A DNA stretch of 62,899 nucleotides, filler included, from Stramenopiles sp. TOSAG23-6 (Eukaryota): assembly GCA_900128565.1 (NCBI GenBank). It is 10 parts of 10 records of this genome, joined end to end, with 100 filler letters (N's around TTAATTAATTAA, not from the genome) between each part and the next. Parts side by side here need not be neighbours in the genome. Positions count along the whole stretch, not along the records: positions 1 to 8,420 come from LT636453.1; 9 more parts are not named here. The stretch is one strand, 5' to 3'. Position numbers and translations under genes: made by a program. Of this stretch, positions 56-55,130 are shown piece after piece (position 1 is the first letter of the stretch; each line of letters begins with the position of its first letter). The notes beneath the pieces were generated by a model. The model was not told where the DNA came from, ran no database searches, and saw only the letters and a list, made by a program, of their open reading frames with translations.

Positions 56-1363
56 GGTCACTCGTGATGCAGTGAAGAGAATGCGGCGTGTATATAATCC
101 GAAACGACAGCCATTAAAAAATATAGAACAGTTATTAAATCCTATGGGAATACACGAAGCTGCACAGAAAGGACGTTTAAAGCGTGTACGTTATCATTAT
201 TTTTTTGTCTAATTTTTTTTCGTACGAAATTTTGTACTTAACAAAAAACAAAAAAAATATTTTTTCACAATACGTGTTCAATGGTTATTAGAAGTTGGAG
301 GAATCCATCCAGATGTATGTTTTTTCATCATACATTTCAATTTTGTTTTATACAAATTTCGTACCTAACGGATTTTTTTTCTAAAATTATTTTTCACAGT
401 ACATTCACAAAATAAATATGGAATGACAGCACTTCACTTAGCAGCAGTGAAAAATCATGTAAAAATTTGTCAGTATTTAATTGATAATGGAGCTGATCCA
501 ACAATTGAAAATAATATTAAACAAACTGTATTTGATATGAAGCCTGGTCAAAAATATTTGAATAGTGTCTTAAATTCGAAAATGGATAAAATACGGAGAA
601 AAAAAGAAAGAAGAAAATTAGATGGTGAACAAAGGCTTCGTGATGCAATGTACGTCTTCACCATGAAATTCATTTTTTTTTTTTTTTCATTTTCGTAAAA
701 AAATGAAAAAAAATCTGTACCCTAACAAATTATGTTCTAAAATATTATTCATAATACATGATGCATCAGAAATTTCTTGAGCAGCAAAGGATAATGTACA
801 AAGGAACATCAATTGCAAAAGTTATAGTTAAAAAATTAAAGGAATTGGATCCAAATATTCCAAAATACGCGACATTTTCAGAGCCTCGTGTACGTTTTCA
901 TTCTGAATTTCAAGTTTATTTTTTTTTCGTACGAAATTTTGTACCTAACAAATTTCGAATTTAATTTCTTTTTACAATACATGTACTACCTACATCTGAG
1001 AAAGTTCAACCTATACCAAAAAGATATGATTTATGGGCGATGACAAAAAAACGCAACCTACCCAATTCTAAACTTCGCTCAATTTCAAAATTAAGACATG
1101 CTAGGAAGTTTTGTGGTGTTTTACAGCGAGATAAAAACTTTCATTTAGACACTTGGTGCAAAGAAGATGTATGTTTATTTTTTTCAATTTGGAATTTATT
1201 TTTTTTCATACGAAATTTCGTACCTAACAAAAACAAAAAAAAATATTTTTCCCCAATACATAACGGTCGTTTTGAACATTGGATGAGAGGATCAGGTTAT
1301 GCATCGAGGGCTTCTAAGCGTTCAGTTGAGAATACTGGTAAAACAGAGAGATTTTACTCATAA
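56..1363 (+). CDS. Ankyrin-repeat protein, 5'-partial; exons 56-185, 276-314, 405-649, 760-889, 983-1168, 1262-1363
   Basis: Joined exons read IHEAAQKGRLKR|VQWLLEVGGIHPD|SQNKYGMTALHLAAVKNHVKICQYLIDNGAD, a continuous ankyrin repeat, when the non-AG introns are removed. Confidence 0.85.
186..275 (+). other. Introner-like intron GT..GT (90 nt)
   Basis: cgt|gtacgtt...cacaatacgt|gtt; in-frame stop inside; flanked by CGTGT direct repeat so the boundary can slide. Confidence 0.75.
315..404 (+). other. Introner-like intron GT..AT (90 nt)
   Basis: gat|gtatgt...cacagtacat|tca caa aat; the AG at 398-399 would frameshift. Confidence 0.85.
650..759 (+). other. Introner-like intron GT..AT (110 nt)
   Basis: gca at|gtacgt...ataatacat|g atg cat joins ORF 423 to ORF 758. 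Confidence 0.8.
890..982 (+). other. Introner-like intron GT..AT (93 nt)
   Basis: cgt|gtacgttttc...tacaatacat|gta cta; full core motif; in-frame stop inside. Confidence 0.8.
1169..1261 (+). other. Introner-like intron GT..AT (93 nt, stop-free, 3n)
   Basis: gat|gtatgt...ccaatacat|aac ggt; full core motif. Confidence 0.8.
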
Positions 1364-2122: not shown

Positions 2123-3804
2123 GAAGAAGAAAATCTGACTTGCTCAAAATAGTTTTTGTTTCATTGACGATAATACCCGAAACCATTTATATGGAAAGGT
2201 ATAATTTTGAGAAATAACAAATTATTATGATGTAAGTCAGGAATATATTACTTTTGATCAGTCCAAAAAGAATGTTTGTGATATCNTGGNAANAANGTTN
2301 GTAATTAATGCTGTACGAATTGGATTTCAAACCATTTTTTACATACTTTAACCATTAGGTACAAAAATTTGGTATGGAATCAACTATTCTAGTATGCATC
2401 TGTGAAATGTGGTGTTTGTGTATTGTGTATAATTATCAGTGAATTTATATGTGATTTAATAAATCTTTTTGAATTTGTACAAATTAGTGCACATTTTTTA
2501 CGAAATAACATAAATTTTTTTGGGATAATAATTTTGGCTGCCGGATGCCACGTGTCAGAATATAAGGTAGCAATATGCAATATGCTACCTATTCAGCGAA
2601 CGGAATTTTTCAATCTCGATTATCTGCATCGAGTACTTGTGAGTCGTCAAGCCAATCAAATACAAAGGTTATTGGAAGTTTTTGTAAGAATATGGACTCC
2701 AATCTCAACGTTGATACTTCACTGCCACAAAAGTCACAGGCTTGTGCTGCAACAGTTATTGGGGTACCTGTTGTAGTTGAAGGGCAAACAAGAAACGTGA
2801 AACCACGATTTTCGTGGAAAGTTATCTTGCTTCTCATCCTTTCGTTTTCGTTAGGTTGTATTTTTTCGGGGGGAGCAACATATTTCATCTTGGATAAAGA
2901 TTATGAAAATAGGATTCAAGATATAAGGAGTGAAAATAATCGTGGTGGAAACAATCCCTCTCCTGGTTACAACGGTCATCGTCACTCTCCTGGTTGCGGC
3001 TGTAATCAAGAACAGGGCTCTTCCGATCCTGAGGAAAATGTTGAAGGCTCTTCCGATCCTGATGAAAATGTTGGAAAAGGTAATGGTCTAAGTGCAAAGG
3101 ATAGTGGAGAAGAGGGATCTTCTAATCCTCTTGGAAATGTTGAAAAAGGTAGTGGTACAAGTATAAAGGATAGTAAAGAACAAGGTTCTTTTAATACTAA
3201 TGGAAGTGTTAAAAAAAAGAGAGGAAATTTCAGAGGAACAAATTTTGGTTTGCGTCAATGGGGGTGTCCTTGTGGAAATCACGGCCAAGGTGATTGCGAT
3301 AATGATAGTTTTTGCATTGAAGTCCCAAAGTAGCCTCCATTACAAACGCTTGGGCCTAAAATTTAGTAATTGTTGTAAGTCTTTGGTTTATTTTTGATGA
3401 GTTGAAGAAGAAAATCTGACTTGCTCAAAATAGTTTTTGTTTCATTGACGATAATACCCGAAACCATTTATATGGAAAGGTATAATTTTGAGAAATAACA
3501 AATTATTATGATGTAAGTCAGGAATATATTACTTTTGATCAGTCCAAAAAGAATGTTTGTGATATCAGTGGAAACAATGTTAGTATTAATGCTGTACGAA
3601 TTGGATTCCAAACCATTTTTTACTTACTTTAACCATTAGGTACAAAAATTTGGTATGGAATCCACTATTCTAGTATGCATCTGTGAAATGTGGTGTTTGT
3701 GTATTGTGTATGATTATGAGTGAATTTATATGTGATTTAATAAATATTGAATATTCAAATCTTTTTGAATTTGTACAAATTAGTGCACATTTTTTACGAA
3801 ATAT
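2123..3804. repeat. Duplicated downstream/intergenic block, ~2123-2507 and ~3404-3804; diverged third copy ~4575-4700
   Basis: Near-identical sequence starting gaagaagaaaatctgacttgctcaaaatagtttttgtttcattgacg. Confidence 0.9.
2692..3333 (+). CDS. Single-pass membrane protein (tandem family copy 2)
   Basis: SWKVILLLILSFSLGCIFSGGATYF..KDYEN shared with copies 1 and 3; start chosen by alignment with copy 3. Confidence 0.7.
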   Translation: MDSNLNVDTSLPQKSQACAATVIGVPVVVEGQTRNVKPRFSWKVILLLILSFSLGCIFSGGATYFILDKDYENRIQDIRSENNRGGNNPSPGYNGHRHSPGCGCNQEQGSSDPEENVEGSSDPDENVGKGNGLSAKDSGEEGSSNPLGNVEKGSGTSIKDSKEQGSFNTNGSVKKKRGNFRGTNFGLRQWGCPCGNHGQGDCDNDSFCIEVPK

Positions 3805-4003
3805 CATTTTTGGGAATTTGTTCCAACTTCCAAGTTCCCAGAATTTTCAAGCAACAGTGGTGCCACGTGTCCGTCGGTGTCACGAATATTACCTCTAAAA
3901 AAAATTATAGATTCAGCATTTTTTTTGTCGTTCGTTGTGGTGCCATAGCTACGTGCACGAGAAGGAGTTAGACCAATCAAATTTAAATTTTTTTTGTAAT
4001 AAT

Positions 4004-4540
4004 ATGGAGACCAATCTCAAAGTTGATACTTTGCTGCCACAGAAGACACAGGCTTCTGTTGCAATAGATACTGCGCCACCTAGAATGACAGAAACAGTAG
4101 TTGTAGGGAAAACAAGAACTCTGGAACCACACCTTTCATGGAAATTTATCTTGCTTCTCATCCTTTCGTTTTCGTTAGGTTGTATTCTTGCCGGGGGAGC
4201 AACATATTTTGTCTTGGATAAAGATTATGAAAACAAACTTTATGAATTGAAGTTAGAGAATGCAATAAATCGCGGTGGCTCTTCAGGTTGTGGCTGTGGC
4301 TCTCCTGACTGCGGGGATAACAACTGCGATGAGGAGGATTCTTCTGGCGTTGGCCCTTCAGGTTGTGACTGTGGCTCTCCTGATTGCGGGAGGGATAAGA
4401 AGGATGAAAGTGTAGCGCCTGATGTAGTGCCTGATGGTAGTAAAAGTGTAGAGCCTGATGGTGGTAAAAGTGTAGCGCCTGATAGTAATAAAAGTGGAGA
4501 GGATGCTGGTAATAAAAGTGTAGCGCCTGGTCGTCCGTGA
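4004..4540 (+). CDS. Single-pass membrane protein (tandem family copy 3)
   Basis: Same TM block; GCxCGSPDCG twice and KSVAPD repeats. Confidence 0.7.
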   Translation: METNLKVDTLLPQKTQASVAIDTAPPRMTETVVVGKTRTLEPHLSWKFILLLILSFSLGCILAGGATYFVLDKDYENKLYELKLENAINRGGSSGCGCGSPDCGDNNCDEEDSSGVGPSGCDCGSPDCGRDKKDESVAPDVVPDGSKSVEPDGGKSVAPDSNKSGEDAGNKSVAPGRP

Positions 4541-11500: not shown

Positions 11501-14500
11501 TTTTTGATTGATCTATGGGCCGCTCGGATGCAGTCAGAGTCAATTTGTATTTTTGACCATGTTGTAATGTCCCTGGAGCTATAGTGAAATATGCCTTGTC
11601 ATTTACAGGTACAGAGTAATACCCAGGTGAAGGAAGAAGAACATCATCTGTGGAATTTTCTACATCATCAACTCGCCATGCAAATGTCATAATGACATCT
11701 GCTTCCATTGACAATGCGCTTCCTCGAATACGAATACTATCGTTTGCATTCAATTTTTTACGTGATGTCAACACTTTTAGTGTAGCAGAAAAGTTTCCCG
11801 AGGAATCATTACTGATAACAGTAACCTTATCTTCATTTTGTCGATCAGGAGCACTAAGCAATGTTAATTTCTTCGTCTTACTAATATAACCAGTGAATAA
11901 ATATGATGAATATGGCGCCAGACGATCATTTCCAATACCATCATTATCTGAATCCAAACGAAGTGACATCTCCCTTGGAAACTTATCACGAAGTCCAACA
12001 TTTTTCTGAATCTTGGCAGAATCACCTGCGGAAGTTGTTGTGTAGCCATTAAGCAGACAATGTGTATCCTGAAGAATATTCTTGCACTTCCAATTGTATA
12101 ACAGTGGCCTTCGATCTGTACGCCAGTCTGGATCTGAACTGCCAGCCATTGAAACGACAGCTGTAGTATCACCTGCAAGAATAGTTGGAGTTCCATGCAT
12201 CACAATGTCAAGTGGTCGGAAGCGAGGTTTGAGCACAACTGAATGCACTTCATTTGCAATCTTACTCAATCCTGTACGCCATATTCGAGCAGTCACTGTG
12301 TATGCTCGACCTGCAAGGAAGAGATCACGCGGGAAAAATATACTTGCCGCTGTAGTTTCCGCTGCGATGCGATGTACTTTTTTATCTGCATTACGAACGT
12401 CGGGATGCAAACCTAATGATTGATCTTCATCGCCAATCCAATCGTGTTTGATTGATACGCTCCAAATCGCCGAGAGATCAAAGAACGTTTTCCCACTGTA
12501 GCAACACGAGTATTCGATTGATGCATAGAATTTTGCAGCATCTCCTGACATAAATTGTCCTTCATCTAATGTTGACTGTAACGAAAAACCATACGAGTCA
12601 TCTGGACGACTCCAATTGAAAGATATAGAAACAGGGCCATGGCTCACAAAATTAGTTGCAGGGTGCCCATTGTGCACATATAATGGATCAGTGGATACAC
12701 TTACAGATACATCATAAGCTAGACCCATAGCAAACTTTTCAGGATGATCATTTCCTCCCAAATCCTCAGCTGTTATTCTATAATAAGAATTTTCTGTCCA
12801 ACCTTCCGCACGAGTTCCAGAAGCATTTATTTTTTTATTCAGTACGTCTAAATATCCCTGTAACTTCTTCGTCTCTTCTGGGGTTCGAGGTTCATATCCA
12901 TTGATTTGACATCCTGAAACCTTCCCACATTTTGATATTGCGTTAACGCCTTGTAATGACGAGTGGGTGCATGGTAATGCACTGCATTTTGTGAAAACAT
13001 CACCTGAAAGTTCGCTTAGACAATCGGGATCGGCTTTGCAATCACTATCTGTATTATGGTACCTACATGTTCCTTGTAAGGAATCGGCTATTGCAGTTGG
13101 TCGAAAACCTTCACACTTCATATCTGATGAAATTGGAGGAGGTGTATTATTTGCAAAAGTGACTAACCATTTATATGATAGCGGACGAATACTTGAACCA
13201 CCAAGCGAAGATGATGCATCGAAACCAATGCCACCCCATGATTCACTCTTTTTTGGACAAGGTTTCAACTTTCCTCTAGCGACAAGTTTTGCCCTTGGAG
13301 CAATATTAACTTTATGACTCGTAAGATTTACAGATGCAGTTGACGACTTTGATTGAAATGTTAAAGGCCACAACCTTCCCTCTCTTATCTTTATTGCAAA
13401 GCCTTCTGAAGCACAAAATTGAGTCTTGCAGATATCACCATACAGAGAGACATAGACTTTTAATCGCGAAGAGCTTATCCATGTGCACTTAGAATCAATT
13501 CCCAAACCATATGAAGTTCTTGAACTAAATAGCTTTGAGCAAAGAAAATTAAATGGAGTAAGGGTTTTATCGTATCCTCTCATTTTATCAGTATCTGTAT
13601 CAAATAATATATCAATGTATGGGCGAGTATTTCCTCGATGCCACTTGGCATACTCCATTTTAGGTGGTGGTGCCGAATGATAATCAAGAGGATTACAGAT
13701 AGTATAATCAGCTGATAGTGGTGGCGTATCAGCCATGAAACCATAAGCGTCATTTTTTGTATTATAGTTTGAATTTAATCCACCTGAAGCCAAAGCTTGA
13801 GATTGATTGCAGGATTGGCCATTTTCATCACACGTCGGACATGTTGCATCAATATTACCATTAGCAGTAGATTCACATCCCATAGATCCGGTCCACAATT
13901 CTCCAGATAATACATTGGCACCTGCAAAGACTATTCTATCATCTTTATCTTTACCAGTTGCTAGCGCGGAAATAGGTCCAGTGCCTAGACTAGATGAAGC
14001 AAATGGTTTAATATCTGTTTGCCTTGGTGAATACCAAGTGAGTCGATCTTTCATATCGGTTGATAATACTGCAATAACTGGATCGCCATCATCACCTTGT
14101 TCGTTACTTCCATTTGCTCTCAAATTCATACTGGCAACACTTGCAGCAGGAAGGCTGTAGAACGCTACACCGCCCACGAATGTTCTACTGTCGTCATCAA
14201 CAGCAAGAGATTGCACCCGAAATGCTTCGTCTTCTCCACTTTCTTGTCTTGGAATCAAAAACTGCGATCTTTTTACCTCTCCGGTCTCTTCGTCAATATG
14301 AGCAACATATCCTTGATATTTACACCAAATATATGCATTACAAGTATGTATGAATCCTTTCCTCGACTTCTTCGTGATAAAAGACATTGGATCAGAAAAT
14401 GAATCCTTCACTAAATAGCGAGTACCGTTAGCTGACAATTCACTTGATTTCATTCCATCAAACCGAAATACGCTCATTGGAGATCCTCGAGTTTCGCCAG

Positions 14501-16933: not shown

Positions 16934-17033
16934 NNNNNNNNNNNNNNNNNNNNNNNNNNNNNNNNNNNNNNNNNNNNTTAATTAATTAANNNNNNNNNNN
17001 NNNNNNNNNNNNNNNNNNNNNNNNNNNNNNNNN

Positions 17034-17116
17034 AAAAATCTAAAAAAATTTGTTAGGTACAAAATTTTTTTACCAAAAAAAAAAAAAAATCGAATTTGAA
17101 AAAAAATAAAACATGC
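17034..17116 (-). other. Introner-like intron with GC donor, 3' end lost at contig edge
   Basis: cgt|gcatgttttat...ttttgtacctaac. Confidence 0.7.
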
Positions 17117-17631
17117 ACGTCGAAGCATCGGAAAGAATTTACGTCTATCACTATTTCCAATACGCCTGGCAGGACTAGCATTTTTGAAACTGTCTTGCAT
17201 AGTATTTGTATTATTTTCAGAGATAATACTTAAACGTTTTTGTATACTTTTTGTCGGGGTACTAAATAATTCAGCATCATGTTTGATTTCATTCTGGTTA
17301 TGTTCATCTTGATACAAATCTTCGTCCCAACAACTTCTGCAGCCCCTAGTATTATGGATAATGAAAAAATATTTCAAAAAAAAATCATAAATTTTTGTTA
17401 GGTACAAAATTTCGTATGAAAAAAAAAATAAATTAGAAATTCATATGAAAACGTACACTACATCTACAAATACATTTCTTTAGCTCCTTCATCCAAGAAA
17501 GAGTATTTTCATCTGTGTCTGCGGCAAAGAATAATCCATGTTCGCTATGAGGGATATCCATATAAAAACATTTCGTGCTACGACATAAATTACTATTTAC
17601 TTTACCATTCGTTTCAATATTCTCCAGAGAT
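17117..17631 (-). CDS. PH-domain-like gene fragment; exons 17631-17457 and 17353-17117
   Basis: [33 protein letters not shown] resembles a PH-domain C-terminus. Confidence 0.6.
17354..17456 (-). other. Introner-like intron GT..AT (103 nt)
   Basis: agt|gtacgttttc...ttcattatccat|aat act agg, phase 0. Confidence 0.7.
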
Positions 17632-17741
17632 CTGTATTTTGGAAAAATATTTCAAAAAAAATCTAAAAAAAATTGTTAGGTATAAAATTTCGTACGAAAA
17701 AAAAATCGATTTTTTTGTTAAAAAAAAAAAATAAAACATCC
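17632..17741 (-). other. Introner-like element at a chimeric MUT/PH junction (GG..AG)
   Basis: cca t|ggatgtttt...aaaatacag|; the flanking exons belong to different proteins. Confidence 0.65.
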
Positions 17742-18816
17742 ATGGATCTTGCTCAGTCAAGGAATACCCTGATGTTTGACAATGTGTTCTTAATAGCCAA
17801 CTTTTTTCATTTTTTGCACCAAATCGATCACGTGTTATTTCAGCCCATAATTCTCTAGCAGCACGCATTTTAGCAACTTCCATATAAAAATTCATACCAA
17901 TTCCCCAAAAGAATGAGAGTCTTGGTGCAACGTCATCTACCTGGAGCCCAGCAGCTTCAGCACATTTAAGGTATTCAATTCCATCTGCCAATGTGAATCC
18001 AAGTTCCAATTTATTATCAGCACCTGCTTCTTGCATATGGTAACCGGAAATTGAAATGGAGTTATATTTTGGCATATGTGTTGCTGTATAACCCATTATA
18101 TCCTGAATAATTCGAAGGGAAGGTTTTGGATGATAAATATACGTATTTCGTACCATAAATTCTTTAAGAATATCATTTTGAATTGTACCTGCCAATAAAC
18201 TACGATCAACGCCTTGTTCTTCACCAGCTACTATATACATAGCAAGTACTGGAAGAACCGCACCGTTCATGGTCATAGACACAGACATCTTCTCGAGAGG
18301 AATTCCTTCAAAGAGAATTTTCATATCTTCCACGGTATCAATAGCCACACCTGCCATACCAACATCTCCAACAACGCGCGGGTGGTCACTATCATATCCA
18401 CGATGTGTAGCTAAATCAAATGCTACACTTAGACCCTGCTGTCCGGCTGCTACATTTTTTCTGTAGAAAGCATTAGAAGCTTCTGCAGTAGAAAACCCCG
18501 CATATTGACGAATAGTCCATGGCCGTGCAGTATACATTGTAGCATAAGGACCACGGGTATACGGATAAGAGCCAGGAGGTGCAGGATCTTCTAAATGTTT
18601 AGTATCAGCTGCGGTATATATCGGTTTTATTGTGATATTTTCAGGTGTGGTCCATAAAAGTGATTTTGGATCTTTTCCTCGGAGCTCCTTTTTTGCCTTT
18701 GCTTCCCATTCTTCGGGAAATTTCACAGTAGAGCTACTATGTCTGAGATGCCTAATTGGTGATGTAATGTATCCATGAATGAGTGAAGGCAAATTGCCTC
18801 TTCTGACATTCAACAT
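17742..18816 (-). CDS. MUT: Methylmalonyl-CoA mutase, N-terminal part only
   Basis: [64 protein letters not shown]. Confidence 0.95.
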
Positions 18817-19066
18817 TGTCACCCGTATACAAACAACACAATATCTATCTCTCTCCTCCAGGGGTCAATATTTTTCGGAATTTGTGTTTCGTGGTGGTGT
18901 CATTTTTGTCAAAATGCGCTGCAGTCAAGTCAGTCCGAAACAGATTGATTAGCTTACTACAAGTGCACTCTATCTTCTATTCTAATATAGCTTTTCTGTT
19001 GTAATTGGAGATTGTAGGGTTGTATATAGAACTAATTTCTATGGCTGAATAAATTCATCCTGATAA

Positions 19067-20767
19067 ATGACCCCAAATAGAGTTTCATGTTCTACATCAC
19101 ATTCATGTTTGCTGTGCGAGTTTGTGGCTTCTACGAGTGAGTTATTAAGAGCACATTACGAGAGTAGTAAGCATGGTTCTCTTGTTGCTAAACAGTGCCC
19201 ACACTGCGAGTATTCAAGTAAATTTGCGGGTACTTTACGACGCCATATAAAAAGTGTTCACACCCTAGAAAATCCTTTTAAATGTGAGCATTGTGATTAT
19301 GCAAGTTCACGTATTGGAACACTGCGTATGCATATACGAAAGAAACATCCGTTGTTAGTAAACACTGCTGAAACTGGATTAAAATGTTTACCAGTTTCCT
19401 CTAGAAGTCAAGAAAGCATCACTTTTTCAGCGGATGGTTATACGACTGCTGCTTCTGTATTCAATCAAAATCAACCTATGGATTGCTTAAGTGACGATAC
19501 ATCTTCGAAAAATAGATTCAAAACGAAAATGTTATTTCCTAAAACTCTAATTTTAGGAGAAATGGACTTCAGTTTTTCTCTGTCACTTATGAATAGATAT
19601 TTCAATAATAATAATCCCCTTAGACATGGTGTTTTTGCTACATCATATATTAAAGCAGAAGATTTTGCATATACTCGAATTAAAAAAAAAATCAGGCAAA
19701 ATATTCGCGTATTAAAAAAGCGTGGTGCTTTTGTACAACATGTACGTCTTCACAATATGAACGTATGAATTTTTTTTTCATAGGAAATTTCGTACCTAAC
19801 GATGTTTTCATGATTTCGTGTTTTTTTCACAATACATGGCGTTGATGCAAGAAATATTGCTGGTACATTTCATTGGGAAAATGCGTACAAACATGACGTA
19901 GTTGGCTTTGAAAAATCTGCTGAAAGTAATTTCATTGGTCAATTGAAGGAAAATCCACATAAAAAGAGGAAAATTGAAATTTCTTCGACAGATAAAAAGA
20001 GGAAAATTGAAATTTCTTCGACAGATCAACAAAATGTTGACCAAGGCGACAAACAAAATCAAAGTATACAAAAAATGGTAGGAATAGCAGAAAATATAAC
20101 ATTTGATGGCTGTACTAACCCTACAAATCCTGCAAAGCATATAGAGCATTCTGTACATACCAATGAAAGCAGAATATTTCAGTTTGATTTAGATATTATT
20201 GCATTTTGCTTTCCTAGATTTAGTACTATTACAGGGATTTGTTCAGAAAACTCTGATCTTCTTGGAAAGTTTTTTTCAAGTGCTCTTGATGTATTGTCTC
20301 CTTCCGTATGTTTTTATTATCAATTTCAATTTCAATTTTTTTTTTTTTCCAAAACATTCAAAAATTTCGTGTACCTAACGTTTTTTTNATTCTAAAAATA
20401 TTTTTTCTCAATATATGGGACCATAGCGATTATGTTACATGTTTGTATAATAGATGGTGTTTCTGAAGACCAATATAATGCATGGGGTGTTGACGAGATA
20501 GCTAATAGTGTAGGTTTGAAAAGAGTTGCTGCTCTTGAATGTCGTTTTCGGCACAATACACAAATTCGAAATTCGAAATGTGGTACAAATTTAATTTCAA
20601 ATTTGTCAAATGCCACCCCTCATGGTAAGAAGAATACTTCAACGAAGTCTCATAATGATAAAGTAAAACATGTTGTAGAAGATTTTCCTCAATATCAACC
20701 AAGAGCTCGTGATGGGAGATCCTTTTCCCCTGACAAAGCGATACTTCATGTATTAAAGAGAAAATAA
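19067..20767 (+). CDS. C2H2 zinc-finger protein; exons 19067-19741, 19838-20305, 20417-20767
   Basis: CPHCEY...LRRHIKSVH and CEHCDY...LRMHIRKKH; frames join across two GT..AT introns. Confidence 0.8.
19742..19837 (+). other. Introner-like intron GT..AT (96 nt)
   Basis: cat|gtacgtctt...cacaatacat|ggc gtt; an alternative in-frame donor exists near 19763. Confidence 0.75.
20306..20416 (+). other. Introner-like intron GT..AT (111 nt)
   Basis: tcc|gtatgtttt...ctcaatatat|ggg acc; alternative in-frame donor at 20291. Confidence 0.7.
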
Positions 20768-20904
20768 ACTAAAAAAATGTTACTTTTTGTATTAAAGAGA
20801 AAATAAACCAAAAAAATGTTTTACGTTATTTATTTCAATAAGAATTAGTTGTTGATTTATTTTACTTTATTTATTATTCTGTTGTTTTTTTTACTTTATC
20901 TATT

Positions 20905-22894
20905 TCAATAAGAATTAGTTTGTTCGTTATGTCGCCGGATTTGTTCAGCTTGAAATAGTTCTAATTGTTTAATCACTTCTTTTTGTCGTAATAAAATCGA
21001 TTGCTCCACTGCAGGAGACAACAACTGTTGTTCCCTTTGACGATCTAAAATCGCTTTATGAACTGCAACGAGATCAGCCATCTGCTGAGTATGTTCTTCA
21101 GTCAATGACTTTAATTGATGTTGATTCAAGGCTTCTCTCTCGTCCTTCAGACGTTGTTTCATTTCAGCTCTCTGGGCTTCATACCATGCATGGCTATGGA
21201 AGCTATCTGTGAGTATTTGTTCGTCAAAAGCCTCTGACGTATTAGAAGTATACTGTGATCTATTGGTTTCTTCGTTGGATGTTGGGTAGTTTGACGAAAG
21301 TTCATCCTCTTTATGCAAGGCATGTGGTTCAGATAAACCACCTGCGCGCTGAAAGTTAGAAACCATGTTTGCATTATTTCCATGTACAATGGGGTCTGGA
21401 TGATGAAAGTTCTTTGATGAACTGTTGTAATCAACAGTATTATCTGGTGAATTGGCAGCATTATCATAATGTGTTGTTTCAGTTGCAACTAGAGGAATTC
21501 CTATACGTTTTGCAGTCATACATGGAGGCTCTTCACAACAATACCATCCCATAATATCATGCTTTTCCCAGAATTGCCCAGTGCTGGATGTAAAACCAAT
21601 ATATGCTGCACCTTCAGCCAATGATAAAGCCGTATTTAGATTGAGAGGGATTGCAAAAGATGGTGCACCTTCCATGGAATCAACCCAAACTGCGAGTGTT
21701 CCTAAACGTTTGAGTTCTCCAGCATCTTTAAGAAAAGGCAAAACAGAAGGTGTTGCTGTAAATTTGGATAGCATGTCAGTCTGAATAGTAGGGTAATATC
21801 GGATCCTCGCAATATGTTCTTTACCATCCGCTAAACTATGTTGTTTGTTGGAACCAAGTTGATGTGATGCAGTTGGAAGATCTCCTTGAATTGTATGAAT
21901 TTTGGAAAAATATTTGAAAAAAAATTCGTTAGGTACAAAATTTCGTACGAAAAAAATCGAATTTGAAAAAAAATAAAACATACATCTGGACCAGATAAGT
22001 GAACACTCACATGATCATAAATTAAATCGCCCATTTCAGGATTATACCAAGTATCAAATTCGACAGCAAGGGAATTACGTAAACCTCCATATGTATTGTA
22101 AAAAATATGTTTTTTTTTTTTTTTTTGAAATTTGTTAGGTACAAAATTGGATATAAAAAAAATAAATTTGAAATTCATGATTAAAACAAACATCCCAAAT
22201 ATTTGCCACCTTCACCCAATGCAGCATGTCCGAGTTCGTTTCCATGAATAACGAATGCAAAACCATCACCACCATGAACACGGCAGGACTTGTATTGATT
22301 TATACCAAAGCTTTGGTCTTTTACATAGTTACATTTTCTTGAGTGATCAGTCATTTGAAAACGAAAACCGCATTCAAAACCGGAATAAACTTCTACAGGT
22401 TGACGATACCACATCGAGCCAATCATAAAAGGTTCAGATGGTGTTAATCGGACACGAATATCACACTCTTCAGTTGGCTCACCCACAAATTCATCACGGT
22501 GGCCAAAAACAGCAAAATCAGTTGACTCTTCAGCTTTTGGATTTGTTTTAACCTCCTGTTTTGAAACTAATTGTTCTGAATCTACTCTATATCGAGTATC
22601 AGTATTACCAGCATTTGCAGTTTCCTCCCTATTGGACTCATGTTTATCACCATAATCAAACTTTGACGCGTTAGCGCAAGAAGAAGTAAATGCAGAACCA
22701 TTAAATACCAAACCTGTCGTATCGTGAAAATGTGGGTAAATGAAGTCTGAAGTACTAATGTTGGTGCAAAATGATAGAAAAACAACAGCACTTAGACACT
22801 TTAGCTGAAACATCTGATGTCTCTTGCATCTGGTACATCCGTAACGACGTCGCATCTTTTGAAAGTGGAACATCTGTTTACAAATATCGCTCAT
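20905..22894 (-). CDS. L-type (legume) lectin domain protein; exons 22894-22192, 22090-21984, 21894-20905
   Basis: GGDGFAFVI, LGYGGLRNSLAVEFDTW, AYIGFTSSTG..HDI..W. Confidence 0.85.
21895..21983 (-). other. Introner-like intron GT..AT (89 nt)
   Basis: gat|gtatgt...ccaaaattcat|aca att restores the frame. Confidence 0.85.
22091..22191 (-). other. Introner-like intron GT..AT (101 nt)
   Basis: gga t|gtttgt...tacaatacat|at gga ggt rebuilds LGYGG. Confidence 0.85.
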
Positions 22895-43839: not shown

Positions 43840-46353
43840 ATGCGTGCAATTATTCTCTACATTGTGATTATTCTGACCCTAGTTGATAGTTCACAATGTG
43901 CAAGGACATCTTGCAAAATACGTGCTCTCTCAAATTGGTTCAAGGAGTATCGAACAGAGAGACAAAAAATGAAAAGGTTGAAATTGAAAAAAACAGCGTT
44001 GAAAGATGCAGAGGAAAAAAGTGGACATAATTTTTTCAACGAATGGCCTTCGTTCCAGTATGATAAAGATATTTGCCTAGCTCTTGTGGCTACTGATGGA
44101 ATGTCAATTCAATATATCATGGATTCCCGCTTAAGAAATGACTTTGATGTTGTTTTGACTGCAGTGCATAACAACGGGTATGTTTTGGATTTGCTCGAGT
44201 TTTATTACAAAATGAACAGAACTGTGGTTTCAACTGCGGTTAAACAAAATGGCCGTGCACTTTCTTATGCACATCCCACATTTAAACGTGATAAACGTAT
44301 CGTTCTCTTGGCACTACAATCTGATCCAGTTGCAATCACAGCTGTGAGTCCTAGACTTTTTGCAGACCNTGCACGTTTTATTTTTTTTCAATTTTGAATT
44401 TATTTTTCTTACGAAATTTCGTACCTAACGATTTTTTTTACTAAAAAAATATTTTTCCAAAATACATGAAATCATCATTGCTTTTCTACAATCTGCGAAA
44501 AAAATATTGCCAATCCATCAAATTTCTTTTCTATTAAAGTATCATCTACAATGTTTTGTATCTATCGAATTGAGAAATAATAAAGAATTTGTTTTACAAA
44601 TGGTCACTATACACCCATTTGCAATCCAATTGGCTTCAGAAACATTACAAACAGATTATGAAATTTCTATTTTTTTTTCAATTTTTTTTATTTTTTTTTC
44701 ATAGTAAATTTTGTACCTAACAATTTTTCAAAATTTTTTTTTGAAATATTTTTTCAAAATACATGAAATTTGTTTACTTGCCGTATCAAATGATTTGTAT
44801 CCCGGTAATCCTCGTAGCATAATAAATCAACTTCCTGATGACTTGAAAAATAATAAAAATATTATAATTGCTGCTCTACGTAATGATGGAAATTATATAG
44901 AATTTATAGATAATACATTCAAAAATAATGTAGACATTTTGACTACAGCTGTTCAACAAAATGGATGTAGTATTGAGTATATGTCTGAATATTGGCGAAA
45001 TAATTTACATTTAGGAATTATTGCAGTGAATCAAAGTATGTTTTCAAAACTTTTAAAAAACTTTCAAAAAAAAAAAATTTTAATTTTTTTTCATACGAAA
45101 TTTCGTACCTAACAAAATTTTAAAAAAATATATTTTTTTTCACAATACATATGGAATTGCTTTAGAATTTTTGTCTTTACGATTACGAAAGAATCGAAAT
45201 GTTGTCTTACAAGCATTGAAATCGAATGGTATGGCCATACAATATGCAGATATACAATATAGATATGATGCTAAAATGGTGTTGGAAGCCGTACGATCAA
45301 ATGGTAAGGCAATACAATTTTTATGTGTGAATAATTTTCTAAACCCTAACCCTAACGAAAATTTTGTACCTCGTTTTCTCTATAAGTTAAAAATTGTTGC
45401 TGTTTCCAATGATGCTCAGGCATTTGATTATATTGCATTACACTATAGGCGGAATAAACATTTTGTGTTGACTACTCTTTATAATAATATCAAAGTGTTT
45501 GATTACATTAGTAATGATTGTATGTTAATGATGAAAATGATCAAAAAAACATTTCAAACTTTTTTTTTTTTCAAATTTTTTTTTTTTTTCAAATTTTTTT
45601 TCAAACTTTTTTTTGTTTATTCACTAACAATTTTTTTTTTTTTTTTTTCAAATATTTCTTCACAATACTGTACTCCAAGATATCTCATTTATGAAAAAGG
45701 TCATTCAAATGTATCCACAATTATTAAATAAATGTTCTCCCAATCCATTACAACTACAAAATGGTATTGTATACAAAACATTGAAACTAAATGGTCTAGT
45801 CATGAAATCTCTTGGTCATAAATACAAATATGATAGTATTGCTATAGAAATTGCATTAAAAAATAACGGAAATGCATTACAATTTTTACCCTATGAGTTA
45901 CGAAATTCTCCAAATATTGTCGTTTTAGCTGTTACACAAAATGGATTGGCCTTGAAGTATGGATCATTTGAAGTTAAATCAAATAAGCAAATTTGTTATA
46001 TAGCAACAAAGAATACACCAGATGCTTTTCATCATATTTCTAATACGTTTTAGTTTTTTCAAATTTTTTTTCAAATTTTTTTTTATACGAAATTTCGTAC
46101 CTAACAAACAAAAGTTTAAAAAAAAAAAATATTTGTTCACAATATATTTTTGTATCAAAGACGAATAATAAAAAAATATACTCAATTAAAAAAAAATCAA
46201 CATTTTGCATTATTACAACTGATACAAAAAAAACACTTGAATTATTTAGGTAAAAATATATTTCGATTTAATAATGAAATATATACTAAAAACCCATTTC
46301 GCGATAAAATGCTGAGTGATGAAGCACGGAAATTTATTCTGGGCATAAGTTAG
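43840..46353 (+). CDS. DUF4116-repeat protein with signal-like N-terminus; exons 43840-44370, 44468-44659, 44765-45035, 45151-45519, 45671-46042, 46148-46353
   Basis: Repeated AVxxNGxAL...L+xD; six ORFs join in frame across five non-AG introns. Confidence 0.8.
44371..44467 (+). other. Introner-like intron GC..AT (97 nt)
   Basis: cNt|gcacgtttt...caaaatacat|gaa atc. Confidence 0.75.
44660..44764 (+). other. Introner-like intron GA..AT (105 nt), boundary ambiguous
   Basis: ATGAAATTT direct repeat at both ends; no GT or GC donor. Confidence 0.6.
45036..45150 (+). other. Introner-like intron GT..AT (115 nt)
   Basis: caa a|gtatgt...cacaatacat|at gga rebuilds the repeat-consensus QNG. Confidence 0.9.
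45520..45670 (+). other. Intron GT..TG (151 nt)
   Basis: gat t|gtatgt...cactaac...cacaatactg|ta ctc caa gat. Confidence 0.7.
46043..46147 (+). other. Introner-like intron AT..AT (105 nt)
   Basis: tct a|atacgttt...cacaatatat|tt ttg. Confidence 0.6.
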
Positions 46354-50082: not shown

Positions 50083-50758
50083 TTAATTATTCTCTTCCTC
50101 TTCATCAATACCACCAAAATGTGTTTCAATTAATCGAGTCTCATAATCAGGTGAATGTATTTTGGAAACATATTTCAAAAAAAAATTAAAATTTGTTAGG
50201 TACAAAATTTTTTTACCAAAAAAAAAATAAATTAGAAATTGAGAAAAAATTAAAATGTACATGATAATTAACGACTTCTTCTGGAAATACGTTTTTCACC
50301 TGTTCGATAATATCACTTAATTTACCTTCCACCTCTTTGTTAAGGTTTTGAACATGTATTTTGGAAAAATATTTCAAAAAAAAATTTAAAAAATTTGTTA
50401 GGTACAAAATTTCGTACGAAAAAAAATTCGAATTTGAAAAAAAATGAAACATACATAACGTAAAGCTCCACTTTCTATGAAAATTCTCTTTGCTGCTGGA
50501 TCTTTCGGTAACGTATCTGCAAATTGTTTGAGAACATCTACAATTGTAAAAAAATATTTCGAAAATTTAAATTATTTTGTTAGGTACAAAATTATCTACG
50601 ATTTTTTTTTTTTTTTTTTTTTTTTGAAAAACGTACATTTTTGTATTTTTCGTGGGGCATCACCAAGTAATGGTTGTAAAGCTTCTAAATCGGCACATTG
50701 AGCTAAAATAAACTTTAAAGCTTTACGACTTTTCTTCTTCAAGTCATCGCTTGAGTCA
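50083..50758 (-). CDS. SPAG6: SPAG6/PF16-like axonemal armadillo protein, C-terminal exons (~50758-50637, 50537-50455, 50353-50261, 50154-50083)
   Basis: DSSDDLKKKSRKALK..LEALQPLLGDAP..KYVLKQFADTLPKD..SGALRYVQ..FPEEVVNYHSPDY matches the SPAG6 C-terminus. Confidence 0.85.
50155..50260 (-). other. Introner-like intron GT..AT (106 nt)
   Basis: cat|gtacat...caaaatacat|tca cct gat tat. Confidence 0.85.
50354..50454 (-). other. Introner-like intron GT..AT (101 nt)
   Basis: tat|gtatgt...caaaatacat|gtt caa. Confidence 0.85.
50538..50636 (-). other. Family member with canonical GT..AG ends (99 nt)
   Basis: aaa t|gtacgt...gtacctaac...acaattgtag|at gtt gives KYVLKQF. Confidence 0.8.
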
Positions 50759-53169: not shown

Positions 53170-55130
53170 TTATTTCGAATTTTTATTACCACTGAGCATA
53201 TCATACACGACTACTTTCATTTGCTTTTTCTTTGGAAAAACTTTTGTTTTCACTTTTTTTCTAACTTTATTCCAATGTAAATTGTTTTTGCCAGGTTTTG
53301 TTTTCAATTTTATTTTTTGAGGATTGGCGTTTTGTCTAAGTAGTAATTTTTCCCTCGTTACCTTTTTCTTCATTTGTTTGGAATTCAATTTTAGTTTTTG
53401 ATCATTGGCGTTGTGTTTCAGTTGTATTGTTTTTCTTTTTACCTTTTGCTTCAAATTTTGGATATTATTTTGTTTTTTTGATTTAACTTTTCTTTTACTT
53501 TTTGCTTTCCGTTTAGTATCATGTTGGACATCATTATTTTCTAGAGGGGTTGGACCAGGTAAATCCAAAATAGTTTTTTTCTTTTTTGTGCTAAATTTCC
53601 GAGAATGACTGATATATGGCGTCTTCATATCGAACGTTGAATGTTCATCGCTCGTAGTATGGTTAAGTAATCTTCGATGTTTCTCCTCATTCTTTCTCCA
53701 ATAGGTTGCCCAAACTCCATCCACAGGAGCTTCCTCCTTGATGGATAAATTGTGAAAAATATTTTTTTTTAGTAAAAAAAAATCGTTAGGTACAAAACTT
53801 TCATAGTAACAAACAAAAATGAGATTAATGATGAAAACGTACTTGGATGTCGTATTGAATTTGTCTGTGTCAAAAAAAAACTTTTACCATCATTCTCTTC
53901 AGCATCATATTGATTGTTTTTTATAGCTATGCCATCACTTATATTCCATTTTCTTTCACAATCTTTTTCTATTTCTGAGAGTAAATTTTCAATATCCAAA
54001 TCTAATGCCTCCTTTACCAAGTTTTGATCCACTTTATCATTAAGAAAATTTTCTTCACAATTCAGATTTAAACCCCTATTCGCAAATAATGAACACATTG
54101 TATCTCGAGCAGATTTTAACATTTGCTCTTGCTTTAAACGTCTATGATGATGAATCAATCTCTTTGATCGCAGTCTATTTGGAGAAGACGTAAAATGATG
54201 TAATCTATTTCGAGAAGATTTAGGAGAAGAAGACACAATGAAACGCCCAGATGATTTGTTGGAATACGCCGAATATGCTGATAGTGCTTTACTACCTCTA
54301 TGGCGCCTATTAATACGTTTAGTATTTAGTGGTGTAGTATTATCATCAATCCAAGATGGATGGAGCAACTCTGCGTGACTAGACCCTCGACTTGAAGAAT
54401 TATTCACAACTAAATGTATCTCTCTTTTTTCTGCATCAGATGCGATTGTCTTCAACATTTGTTTACGTTGTTTCGCTGTCAACCTGAGATGTCTTGTACA
54501 AAAACCTCGCCACATTTTCTGCATTTTGGTTGCCGCTACATTTCTCTTTTTCATTAGTTTTCTTCTTTTTCTACGAGATGTCTTTTTGCGAACAAATTTT
54601 GACGCATTCCTTGTGAGAACTTTAGATGCAGCTTCATACAATCGCTTCTGTGCTTGCGCGCGAGTCCAACGTTGAATTATTTTTACAGTATCACTATAGA
54701 CTTCCCGACACTGTTTTTCATATTCGGTTCGTATTTGGTGCATAAGCCACGCCCGTTGAATTGCTCTTGCAGCAGATGTTTGACGTCGATGTTCAAGAAT
54801 TAGTCGTCTAGAATCAATCGCGTCTAGAAAACGTCTTGCTTCACTCTGAATAGTTCGTGCAGCATGATTAAGCACGAACTCAGCCTGTTTTCGACGGTCG
54901 TATCGTACCATATTACGCTGAACTCTAAGTGATAATACGCGTTCTGCTTCTTCCAATTTATCGAGTTCGCGCTGAGCAGCTTGCATGGACTCAATTGCTT
55001 TTTGTCGCAACTTCTCTGTGCGTCGCCGCTTTCTCTCTAATAATCTCTGCACAGCTTCCTCTGAGGAGTCGTCGTAGTATTTGCCTACATTAGAACCTCT
55101 CATTTGACGAAGAGATCGAAGATGAGACAT
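53170..55130 (-). CDS. IQ-motif, Lys/Arg-rich protein; exons 55130-53843 and 53744-53170
   Basis: AARTIQSEAR, AARAIQRAW, ATKMQKMWRG. Confidence 0.75.
53745..53842 (-). other. Introner-like intron GT..AT (98 nt)
   Basis: cca a|gtacgttttc...cacaatttat|cc atc aag, phase 1. Confidence 0.75.

What the first reader, a model, noticed from the sequence alone, without database searches (positions are those of the whole stretch)
920..960. Conserved palindromic core fused to the branch-point motif
Seen: TTTCGTACGAAA and GTACGAAATTTCGTAC are overlapping palindromes immediately 5' of CTAAC. Copies alternate TTTCGTAC and TTTTGTAC, which keeps pairing as G-C or G-U on the sense strand. CGTAC is also complementary to the donor GTACG. 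The core is better conserved than the surrounding homopolymer tracts. Inference: an RNA hairpin presenting the branch A, an extended pairing site for a variant U2, or a transposase-binding site.
Basis: partly seen in the sequence, partly recalled or inferred. Interest (0 to 1): 0.7.

Follow-up and report, generated by a model that had tools for sequence, protein, structure and literature searches.

The report
Branch-site core of a repeated intron
The palindromic stretch is the conserved middle of a short intron copied many times through the genes of a marine protist; its right half is the branch site, nothing shows that the palindrome is kept as an RNA hairpin, and most copies oddly end in AT instead of AG.

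Summary
Window 920-960 lies inside intron 890-982 (+), one of 29 nhmmer-detected copies of a 90-115 nt intron family that interrupts ORFs in the sense direction. The 12-nt palindrome is real (925-936; 7 exact copies). The invariant part is the right arm plus branch motif, TTTYGTACCTAAC (0.96-1.00 identity). The left arm varies at its CpG columns (0.52-0.67). Four candidate helices show no covariation beyond shuffles, and folds are weak (-3.3 to -4.4 kcal/mol, z above -2). The C/T alternation is a CpG transition linked to other unpaired positions, not wobble-preserving covariation. My reading is that this is the branch-site module of an introner-like mobile intron, with the palindrome inherited from the founder copy. 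The unexpected feature is the 3' end. Removing GT...AT keeps the frame in 9 of 9 testable copies and gives a gapless 119-residue match to a continuous homologue. No RNA junction evidence was obtained.

The parts
890..982 (+). The intron copy that holds the finding (93 nt, GTACGT...ACAAUACAT)
   Evidence: nhmmer model positions 1-98, E = 8.8e-18. Removing it joins a 45-codon and a 126-codon open frame in phase 0.
890..898 (+). 5' splice-site module GTACGTTTT (family consensus GTAYGTTTT)
   Evidence: Columns 1-9 are 0.82-1.00 identical, except column 4, which is C in 8 and T in 8 copies.
920..927 (+). U-run upstream of the core
   Evidence: Model columns 32-39 are 0.95-1.00 identical.
925..936 (+). 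Perfect 12-nt palindrome TTTCGTACGAAA (left arm of the core)
   Evidence: 7 exact copies in the window against 0.01 expected. Its CpG columns 40, 41, 44 and 45 are only 0.52-0.67 identical.
929..944 (+). Imperfect 16-nt palindrome GTACGAAATTTTGTAC
   Evidence: the perfect version has 0 exact matches and 11 with one mismatch. The helix has 70.8% paired cells against 69.1% in shuffles.
937..949 (+). Extended branch-site module TTTTGTACCTAAC, with the presumed branch A at 948
   Evidence: Columns 49-61 are 0.89-1.00 identical except Y at column 52 (T 18, C 9). That A948 is the branch point is inferred from the yeast-type consensus (recalled), not shown.
932..957 (+). Copy-specific inverted repeat CGAAATTT / AAATTTCG that encloses TGTACCTAAC as a 10-nt loop
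   Evidence: 8 nt, 100% complementary. It is the minimum-energy fold of 920-960 (-5.9 kcal/mol, z = -1.81). Across 27 copies it has 67.8% paired cells against 67.1% in shuffles.
962..982 (+). 3' module ending ...ACAATACAT, with terminal AT rather than AG
   Evidence: Model columns 78-98 average about 0.89 identity (hand mean). The frame is kept only if the intron ends here; the nearest in-frame AG lies 18 nt into the exon.
186..275 (+). Family copy ending ACGT, followed by a 13-codon exon (276-314)
   Evidence: exon read.
315..404 (+). Family copy (GTATGT...CAGTACAT)
650..759 (+). Diverged family copy (GTACGT...GTACCCTAAC...ATAATACAT)
   Evidence: The phase-2 frames are open on both sides.
1169..1261 (+). 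Family copy with the core variant CATACGAAATTTCGTAC
   Evidence: in frame.
17354..17456 (-). Family copy ending TCCAT
   Evidence: in frame; 65 and 106 open codons.
19742..19837 (+). Family copy
   Evidence: in frame; 225 and 183 open codons.
21895..21983 (-). Family copy in a lectin-like gene
   Evidence: in frame.
22091..22191 (-). Family copy in the same gene
   Evidence: in frame.
45036..45150 (+). Family copy in a DUF4116-repeat gene, with AA before the donor
   Evidence: Only GT...AT removal gives the repeat's N-G motif at the junction.
50354..50454 (-). Family copy in a SPAG6/PF16-like gene, GT...AT
   Evidence: the spliced product is colinear with P0121.
50155..50260 (-). Family copy in the same gene, GT...AT
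50538..50636 (-). Family copy in the same gene with a canonical TAG end
53745..53842 (-). Family copy (GTACGT...CAATTTAT)
   Evidence: in frame; 440 and 190 open codons.

Best explanation
The 41 bases are the middle of one copy of an introner-like intron family. The family consists of short (about 90-115 nt), U-rich, near-identical introns that have multiplied through the protein-coding genes of an AT-rich marine protist.

Each copy carries its own yeast-like 5' splice site (GTAYGT), a U-run, the core, and a conserved 3' module. Within the core, the part that is kept is the right arm fused to the branch motif, UUUYGUACCUAAC. I read this as an extended branch-site module recognised by the branch-site machinery (inferred).

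The left arm (CGUACGAAA) mirrors the right arm and so creates the palindromes. In resident copies it drifts, mainly at its CpGs, without compensation. The palindrome is therefore sequence inherited from the founder element, not an RNA helix maintained by selection. The TTTC/TTTT alternation is a CpG transition that tracks with other unpaired positions (sub-lineages of the family).

Shown here: the repetition, the position inside ORFs, the column conservation, the lack of covariation, and the reading-frame and homologue evidence for the intron limits. Inferred: spliceosomal removal, use of A948 as branch point, and mobility.
For: Repetition. There are 29 nhmmer hits at E <= 1e-3 in 62.9 kb. In a DNA metagenome run, word depth over bins holding a copy is 838-21,674 (11,583-21,674 for four of the six), against mostly 1-9 (at most 46.5) over the other covered bins (summed over contigs and possibly over organisms).

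Intron nature. Of 13 complete copies, 9 have clear frames on both sides, and in 9 of 9 removal of GT...model column 98 keeps the frame. Joining four SPAG6-like exons by coordinates gives a gapless 119-residue alignment to the continuous 176-aa protein P0121 across three family introns. The PDB SPAG6 chain 9ijj_AA is colinear across the first of them.

Asymmetric conservation. GTACCTAAC is 0.96-1.00 identical and AAATTT 0.89-1.00. G41 is 11 of 27, and C44 and G45 are 0.63 and 0.65.

No covariation. Helix b has 70.8% paired cells against 69.1% in shuffles (59 of 500 shuffles as high), and its closing G-C is present in only 9 of 28 copies. Helix a has 80.7% against 77.6% (41 of 500; covariation 0.097 against 0.095). 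The loop-presenting helix has 67.8% against 67.1% (182 of 500). The donor-core helix has 78.7% against 78.2% (235 of 500).

CpG pattern. 8 of 10 CpG columns are polymorphic against 8 of 72 other well-aligned columns, Fisher p = 1.3e-5. The donor shows the same C/T split (8 and 8) with G fixed.

Linkage. G41 occurs only with T52 (11 to 0, against 6 to 8 for A41; p = 0.003). Positions that cannot pair are linked as strongly, for example columns 11 and 88 (9/0/0/4, p = 0.0014).

Folds. The local hairpin is -3.3 to -4.4 kcal/mol. Whole-intron z-scores run from -0.16 to -1.78.
Against: The non-CpG columns of the left arm (T42, A43, A46-48) are as invariant as the branch motif (0.93-1.00). They are shared by copies whose 5' internal regions differ strongly. 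This hints at constraint on more than the branch motif itself.

The complete absence of copies with both CpGs intact (0 of 27) and the G41/T52 association could reflect an energetic trade-off in a helix rather than lineage structure.

With only 27-28 young copies, and arms that rarely vary outside CpGs, the covariation tests have little power. 'No covariation' is absence of support, not disproof.

The window's overall CpG observed/expected ratio is 0.89, so strong genome-wide CpG decay is not evident.

No exon-exon junction was seen in RNA contigs, so splicing itself, and the exact limits, rest on frames and homology.

The assembly breaks and may be chimeric at these repeats (see Noticed in passing), so some 5' and 3' halves may not belong together.
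Confidence: 0.6

Rival explanations
1. This is a functional weak RNA hairpin. One of the alternative helices would be used during splicing to expose or to mask the branch site, or to bring the donor near it. The candidates are GUACGA/UYGUAC next to the branch motif, AAAUUU/AAAUUU with the branch motif in a 10-nt loop, and donor GUAYG with core CRUAC.
For: Helix b is the local fold in 5 of 6 whole introns folded and in 2 of the 3 core windows. In the finding's own copy an 8-bp perfect stem encloses UGUACCUAAC as its loop. AAATTT on both sides of the branch module is frequent. G41 and C52 are never both intact and both are lost in only a minority of copies, which could be read as tuning of helix strength.
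Against: None of the four helices beats column shuffles in paired cells or covariation. About 20-30% of cells are unpaired and are not compensated. The fold energies are small and the z-scores are above -2. The strongest possible helix (both CpGs intact) is absent, the opposite of what selection for pairing predicts. Helix b would sequester the GUAC that directly abuts CUAAC.
Confidence: 0.12
2. This is a DNA-level recognition site. The inferred founder core (both CpGs intact) would be a perfect inverted repeat of two GTACGAAA half-sites, bound by a dimeric protein (transposase or other) that mobilises master copies. Resident copies would then be free to decay.
For: Palindromic half-sites share GTACG with the element's 5' end. 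The ends themselves form a short inverted repeat, ATGTAT...ATACAT (9 nt, 89% complementary in copy 50454-50354). Decay limited to one arm in resident copies fits a signal needed only in source copies. Many introner families are non-autonomous DNA transposons (passages of PMC9860276).
Against: No transposase gene, no clear target-site duplication and only a 4-6 bp terminal inverted repeat were found. The flank dinucleotide equals the terminal dinucleotide in 9 of 18 copies against about 7 expected by random pairing (my count). No copy antisense to an ORF was seen among those whose flanks could be phased, which is unlike unselected DNA insertion. An internal rather than terminal binding site is unusual. 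The right arm's invariance is explained more simply by the branch site.
Confidence: 0.15
3. This is extended base-pairing to a variant U2 snRNA. The organism's U2 would carry a longer or altered branch-binding stretch that pairs with UUUYGUACCUAAC or further into the core.
For: A 13-nt near-invariant stretch ends in the branch motif. The motif has an extra C relative to the yeast-type consensus (recalled). Several introns that fit the family poorly also have ACCTAA-type motifs (34769, 41509).
Against: This was not testable. No snRNA was found in the window and no genome is held. Clearly non-family or diverged introns use ACTAAT-type motifs without the upstream TTTYGT context (28440, 34196, 40992).
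Confidence: 0.1
4. These are not spliceosomal introns at all. They would be elements removed at the DNA level (as ciliate eliminated sequences are), removed by another RNA pathway, or artefacts of a single-cell assembly.
For: Most copies lack a 3' AG. One copy (44688-44764) lacks the GT donor and is bounded by a 9-nt direct repeat. Assembly gaps abut several copies.
Against: Strongly conserved GTAYGT and CTAAC motifs are the hallmarks of spliceosomal recognition. Environmental DNA contigs at single-copy depth run from exon into the intron (X3 records 1, 5 and 8), so the elements are present in bulk DNA of natural populations. The copies seen are in the sense orientation.
Confidence: 0.04

Closest known systems
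Introners / introner-like elements (Micromonas, Aureococcus, fungi, many marine protists; PMC9860276, passages read)
   Same: Many near-identical short introns at unrelated sites in different genes. They are spliced out so that the ORF is restored. They carry their own splice signals. They are typical of aquatic protists.
   Different: In the passages I read, the described families use GY-AG limits and are often defined by target-site duplications or terminal inverted repeats. Here most copies end in AT, the duplication test is inconclusive, and the inverted repeat is only 4-6 bp. An internal palindrome fused to the branch site is not mentioned in the passages I read, and the terms 'palindrom', 'hairpin' and 'branch point' gave 0 hits in PMC12130899. 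The supplementary tables of these papers were not examined and might list this or a related family.
Introner elements with direct and inverted repeats and non-canonical ends in Amoebophrya (PMC7789003, passages read)
   Same: Repeated introns in a marine protist with non-GT/AG ends. Short direct repeats overlap the exon-intron limits (here AT|GT...AC AT| in 9 of 18 copies), and the ends are complementary.
   Different: The Amoebophrya elements have 8-20 nt inverted repeats and highly variable splice motifs. Here the donor and branch motifs are strict and yeast-like, and only the 3' dinucleotide departs from the rule.
Non-canonical introns of Fritillaria borealis, including introns ending 3'AC or 3'AU and handled by diverged U2AF paralogues (PMC13326754, passages read)
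   Same: A precedent for a major-type spliceosome removing many introns whose 3' end is not AG, including AU.
   Different: That organism is an animal, its 5' ends are also non-GT, and the introns are not one repeated family with a fixed branch module.
Yeast-type introns with rigid GTATGT donor and TACTAAC branch site (recalled, not from a call)
   Same: A near-invariant donor hexamer and a CTAAC branch motif.
   Different: The motif has an extra C (TACCTAAC), a conserved 12-nt extension upstream, a branch-to-3' end distance of 33-43 nt, and an AT end.
U12-type (minor) introns (features recalled)
   Same: Tolerance of non-AG 3' ends and a long conserved branch motif.
   Different: The donor is GTAYGT rather than the RTATCCTT type. 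The branch motif differs. The branch-to-3' distance is 33-43 nt rather than roughly 10-26 nt.

Membership tests
Introner / introner-like element | Many near-identical copies at unrelated sites in different genes | tested here: met
   There are 29 nhmmer hits at E <= 1e-3 in 62.9 kb. Two of them (56147, 40405) are doubtful. The hits lie in ankyrin, DUF4116, SPAG6-like, lectin-like and other ORFs.
Introner / introner-like element | Each copy behaves as an intron: its removal restores the reading frame or the protein | tested here: met
   9 of 9 copies with clear frames, out of 13 complete copies, stay in frame. The spliced product aligns without gaps over 119 residues to P0121 across three copies. 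Junction reads in RNA were not obtained.
Introner / introner-like element | Evidence of recent gain (presence/absence between relatives) | tested here: inconclusive
   P0121 is continuous where this genome has three introns. Whether P0121 comes from DNA or from a transcript is unknown.
Introner / introner-like element | Target-site duplication and/or terminal inverted repeats (for DNA-transposon introners) | tested here: inconclusive
   The flank dinucleotide equals the terminal dinucleotide in 9 of 18 copies against about 7 expected. The only locus-specific case is GT/GT at 186-275. The terminal inverted repeat ATGTAT/ATACAT is 4-6 bp, reaching 9 nt at 89% in one copy.
U2-type spliceosomal intron | GT (or GC) at the 5' end with a U1/U6-type hexamer | tested here: met
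   Column 1 is G in 12 of 12 copies, column 2 is T in 13 of 14, and column 5 is G in 16 of 16. Two copies have GC donors, one has ATACGT, and one has no donor.
U2-type spliceosomal intron | A branch motif of the YTRAY type upstream of the 3' end | tested here: met
   CTAAC columns 57-61 are 0.96-1.00 identical in 27 copies. The motif lies 33-43 nt from the 3' end (coordinates). Use of this A as branch point was not tested.
U2-type spliceosomal intron | AG at the 3' end | tested here: not met
   By my reading, about 20 of 25 readable 3' ends are AT, 3 are AG, 1 is GT and 1 is unclear. An AT end is required by the frame or by homology in 12 copies (9, 2, 1).
U12-type intron | RTATCCTT-type donor and a TCCTTRAY branch motif close to the 3' end (features recalled) | tested here: not met
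   The donor consensus is GTAYGTTTT and the branch motif is GTACCTAAC, 33-43 nt from the end.
Conserved structured RNA element (hairpin) | Compensatory changes that keep the pairs | tested here: not met
   The covariation scores are 0.105, 0.097, 0.166 and 0.146, against shuffle means of 0.082, 0.095, 0.164 and 0.138 (77, 216, 227 and 175 of 500 shuffles as high).
Conserved structured RNA element (hairpin) | Folding energy clearly below that of shuffled sequence | tested here: not met
   The z-scores run from -0.16 to -1.81 for 9 folds.
Conserved structured RNA element (hairpin) | Match to a curated RNA family | tested here: not met
   Rfam gave 0 hits at gathering score over the whole window. 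Over 150-1300 it gave only two sub-threshold miRNA-model hits, at 605-717 and outside the core.
MITE-type DNA transposon | Insertion in both orientations and outside genes | tested here: not met
   Opposite-strand nhmmer hits are only echoes of the palindrome, with E from 0.04 to 8. Every copy whose flanks could be phased is sense to its ORF. Partial copies beside gaps were not phased.

The most novel reading that the evidence does not exclude
This protist removes thousands of mobile GU...AU introns, so its splicing machinery does not need a 3' AG. The near-invariant 20-nt core would be a perfect palindrome in the inferred founder copy. It would be the family-specific signal that either lets the 3' end be chosen without AG or is recognised by whatever mobilises the element.
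Probability: 0.15. Interest if true: 0.8.

Novelty: new variant of a known kind. Interest (0 to 1): 0.45.

Why it matters
Taken alone, the palindromic core is an ordinary consequence of a repeated intron carrying a fixed branch-site module, and there is no sign of a new RNA structure.

The family around it is of more interest for two reasons:
- It appears to be a very high-copy mobile intron in an uncultured marine protist.
- Most copies have a canonical donor and branch site but end in AT.

If RNA data confirm GU...AU removal on this scale, the organism would be a natural system for asking how the second step of splicing picks a 3' site without AG. It would also show how a mobile intron can spread while carrying a 'wrong' acceptor. 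Pipelines that look for introners among annotated GY-AG introns would miss such a family.

Tried and rejected
1. Whole genome. None is held for this window.

2. More copies from public metagenomes. I scanned with a 3'-module pattern chosen to be independent of the core.

3. RNA evidence. Four runs were laid on 17034-25420: three metatranscriptome contig sets and one DNA set. Among the 15 joints shown, of 194, none is a clean exon-exon joint over a family intron. The RNA contigs are short and stop at the repeats, so this says nothing either way about splicing.

4. Taxonomy from eRF1. The nearest named proteins are stramenopile and animal, at 65-72% identity. One unnamed metagenome protein is 82% identical. 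The lineage is not resolved.

5. Literature. No paper in the library holds the branch-module string in an intron context; the hits are primers. I found no description of a GT-AT intron family in a protist.

6. AT-AC reading of the limits. It gives the same mRNA where the exon ends in AT, but it needs AA, CC, GT or CA as the 5' dinucleotide in 7 other copies. It also turns the conserved N-G of a DUF4116 repeat into Y-G at 45036. I rejected it in favour of GT...AT.

7. A downstream in-frame AG as the true acceptor. One exists for 6 of the 13 complete copies, 6 to 57 nt downstream. It would delete conserved residues in the DUF4116 and SPAG6-like proteins. I rejected it for those.

8. Short SPAG6-like exons against the PDB. 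The 31-aa exon gave only chance hits.
Full report
WHAT IS AT THE COORDINATES

Window 920-960 reads UUUUUUUU-CGUACGAAAUUUUGUAC-CUAAC-AAAUUUCGAAU. It lies inside a 93-nt segment, 890-982, that starts GTACGT and ends ACAATACAT.

This segment separates two open reading frames that join in phase 0 when it is removed (45 and 126 open codons).

The 12-nt palindrome TTTCGTACGAAA is at 925-936. It occurs exactly 7 times in the window against 0.01 expected.

The 16-mer at 929-944 is GTACGAAATTTTGTAC, with one G/T position.

THE FAMILY

TTYGTACCTAAC with at most 1 mismatch occurs 29 times against 0.52 expected. A profile built from ten clear copies finds 29 hits at E <= 1e-3. I set two of them aside as doubtful (56147, 40405).

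The consensus, from 5' to 3', is:
- GTAYGTTTT;
- a variable A/T-rich part in at least two forms;
- a U-run;
- C(G/A)TACGAAATTT(T/C)GTACCTAAC;
- a variable A/T stretch;
- ATATTTTTYCAMAATACAT.

The host is an AT-rich (about 35% GC) marine eukaryote. Its sequence is held by seawater metagenomes and metatranscriptomes.

The assembly consists of contigs joined by N-linkers, and several linkers abut copies of this intron. In a DNA metagenome run, summed word depth over bins that hold a copy is 838-21,674, and 11,583-21,674 for four of the six. The other covered bins mostly show 1-9, at most 46.5. Those figures sum contigs, possibly of several organisms, so I take them only as a sign of very high copy number.

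No whole genome was available. A metagenome scan for further copies found none: 0 of 119 loci matched the model. Everything below therefore rests on 27-29 copies.

CONSERVATION (27 copies; region means are my own hand averages of that table)

| Region | Identity |
|---|---|
| GTACCTAAC | 0.96-1.00 |
| AAATTT before it | 0.89-1.00 |
| TA of the left GTAC | 1.00 and 0.96 |
| U-run | 0.95-1.00 |
| Donor, except column 4 | 0.82-1.00 |
| 3' module | about 0.89 on average |
| 5' internal part | about 0.75 |
| Stretch after the branch motif | about 0.62 |

The last two values are partly due to length changes in homopolymers.

The variable core positions are columns 40, 41, 44, 45 and 52 (0.52-0.67). 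These are the three CpGs of the inferred CGTACGAAATTTCGTAC.

The two arms are not equivalent. G53 of the right GTAC is kept in 26 of 27 copies, whereas G41 of the left GTAC is kept in 11 of 27. The donor CpG behaves like the right arm: C or T in 8 and 8 copies, G in 16 of 16.

Overall, 8 of 10 CpG columns are polymorphic against 8 of 72 other well-aligned columns (p = 1.3e-5). So the TTTC/TTTT alternation is one case of a general CpG-transition pattern. The window's overall CpG observed/expected ratio is 0.89, which means I cannot say that CpG decay is strong genome-wide.

PAIRING TESTS

I tested four helices on gapless or anchored alignments (A1, A2, A3).

| Helix | Cells paired | Shuffle mean (shuffles as high) | Covariation (shuffle mean) |
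|---|---|---|---|
| (b) GUACGA/UYGUAC | 70.8% | 69.1% (59 of 500) | 0.105 (0.082) |
| (a) UUUC/GAAA | 80.7% | 77.6% (41 of 500) | 0.097 (0.095) |
| (c) CGAAAUUU/AAAUUUCG, branch module as loop | 67.8% | 67.1% (182 of 500) | 0.146 (0.138) |
| (d) donor GUAYG with core CRUAC | 78.7% | 78.2% (235 of 500) | 0.166 (0.164) |

Further details:
- In helix (b) the closing G-C is present in only 9 of 28 copies.
- Helix (c) is perfect in the finding's own copy.
- In helix (d) the C/U-G/A pair is split CG 5, UA 5, UG 4 and other 8.

The local hairpin is worth -3.3 to -4.4 kcal/mol. The z-scores of nine folds lie between -0.16 and -1.81.

G41 is found only with T52: 11 to 0, against 6 to 8 for A41 (p = 0.003). 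But positions that cannot pair are linked as strongly, for example column 11 with column 88 (9/0/0/4, p = 0.0014). This points to sub-lineages of the family. None of the 342 pairs tested would survive correction for multiple testing.

The tests have little power with so few young copies. They give no support for a helix but do not disprove one.

WHAT THE CORE MOST LIKELY IS

The part that is kept is the right arm fused to CUAAC, that is, an extended branch-site module. The left arm mirrors it and drifts. I therefore read the palindrome as inherited founder sequence.

The invariance of T42, A43 and A46-48 across copies with different 5' internal parts leaves room for a further role, in RNA or in DNA. 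I could not tell which.

The variant-U2 idea could not be tested. Rfam finds no snRNA in the window and nothing relevant over the introns at 150-1300.

Introns that fit the family poorly or not at all use ACTAAT- or CCTAA-type motifs without the TTTYGT context. One clearly unrelated intron (28440-28561, GTAAGT...CACAG) is fully canonical.

THE 3' END

This is the unexpected part. By my reading, about 20 of 25 readable 3' ends are AT. Three are AG, one is GT and one is unclear.

Frames. Of 13 complete copies, 9 have clear frames on both sides, and removal from GT to the AT (model column 98) keeps the frame in 9 of 9. Chance would be one in three each. The copy at 650-759 does the same.

SPAG6-like gene. 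In this gene (50083-50763, minus strand), exon translations match PDB SPAG6 chain 9ijj_AA at residues 391-429 and 433-457. That is exactly colinear across the AG-ending copy 50636-50538. A 176-aa continuous protein from a public collection (P0121, 92% identical over one exon) aligns without gaps over 119 residues to the in-silico joined exons. The alignment crosses that copy and two AT-ending copies, 50454-50354 and 50260-50155.

Alternative limits. Where the upstream exon ends in AT (10 of 22 copies by my count), GT...AT, TG...CA and AT...AC removal give the same mRNA. Where it does not (7 copies), the AT-AC reading would need AA, CC, GT or CA as the first dinucleotide. At 45036 only GT...AT gives the N-G that five of seven other DUF4116 repeats of the same protein show at that place (the other two have D). 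I therefore favour GT...AT.

Limits of the evidence. RNA contigs laid on 17034-25420 did not bridge any family intron among the rows shown. Splicing itself is therefore inferred, not seen.

COMPARISON WITH WHAT IS KNOWN

The family works like introners: repeated, self-contained introns spreading through genes of aquatic protists (PMC9860276, passages). It meets the copy-number and ORF-restoring criteria.

The target-site-duplication and terminal-inverted-repeat criteria are inconclusive. The flank matches the terminal dinucleotide in 9 of 18 copies against about 7 expected, and the inverted repeat is 4-6 bp.

It fails the AG criterion of ordinary U2-type introns, and it fails the donor and branch criteria of U12-type introns (features recalled).

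The precedents for non-AG ends are:
- Amoebophrya introner elements with direct and inverted repeats (PMC7789003, passages);
- Fritillaria introns ending AC or AU, handled by diverged U2AF (PMC13326754, passages).

Both differ in that their 5' ends are also irregular.

I found no description of this motif or of a GT-AT family in five literature searches. The supplementary tables of the introner surveys were not examined and could list a related family.

VERDICT

The hairpin and covariation reading is not supported. The core is best seen as the branch-site module of a new introner-like family whose unusual feature is its AT 3' end.

Noticed in passing
window 890-982, 1169-1261, 19742-19837, 45036-45150, 50354-50454, 50155-50260 and others: Most copies of the intron family end in AT rather than AG. 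This is required by the reading frame in 9 of 9 testable copies and by a gapless match to a continuous homologue for two copies. The exon before the donor ends in AT in 10 of 22 copies, so the limits are often ambiguous (GT-AT or AT-AC).
   Followed up: yes
window 44688-44764 (+): This copy lacks the GTAYGT donor. It is bounded by a 9-nt direct repeat, ATGAAATTT, at both junctions. Removing the element plus one repeat gives a good DUF4116 repeat. It could be a deletion, a single-cell amplification or assembly artefact, or a hint of another removal route.
   Followed up: partly
window 17614-18864 (-) and 17623-17711 (-): A methylmalonyl-CoA-mutase-like ORF stops at a family intron, and the exon after it is unrelated to that ORF. 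Several N-linkers (16934-17033, 25421-25520, 50853-50952, 59320-59419) abut intron copies. The assembly probably breaks, and may join wrongly, at these repeats.
   Followed up: partly
P0121 (protein), compared with window 50083-50763 (-): A 176-aa continuous protein is 92% identical over one exon. It spans three positions where this genome has family introns. It is either a transcript or an intron-less gene of a close relative.
   Followed up: partly
window 17314-17873, 21794-22073, 25154-25420 (table 2): Intron copies carry word depths in the thousands in three metatranscriptome contig sets as well as in DNA. Flanking exons carry depths of 0-6. Intron sequence is therefore abundant in RNA libraries, as unspliced RNA, excised introns or DNA carry-over.
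   Followed up: no
window 276-314 (+): A 13-codon exon of an ankyrin-repeat gene lies between two family introns (186-275 and 315-404).
   Followed up: no
window 40992-41090 (+), 34769 (-), 41509 (+), 34196 (-): These introns fit the family only loosely. They have canonical AG ends or ACTAAT / CCTAA branch motifs. For example, 40992 ends CAATACAG, one base away from the family's CAATACAT. They may be old, diverged members.
   Followed up: partly
window 28440-28561 (+): An unrelated, fully canonical intron (GTAAGT...CACAG, phase 0) in an EF-hand/WW gene. The organism therefore also has ordinary GT-AG introns.
   Followed up: yes
window about 2175-2365 and 3455-3646 (- strand): Two near-identical stretches of about 190 nt lie in front of two paralogous ORFs (2566-3333 and 3911-4540). 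This is a local tandem duplication unrelated to the intron family. It matched the branch-motif pattern only by a TTTGTACCTAAT string.
   Followed up: no
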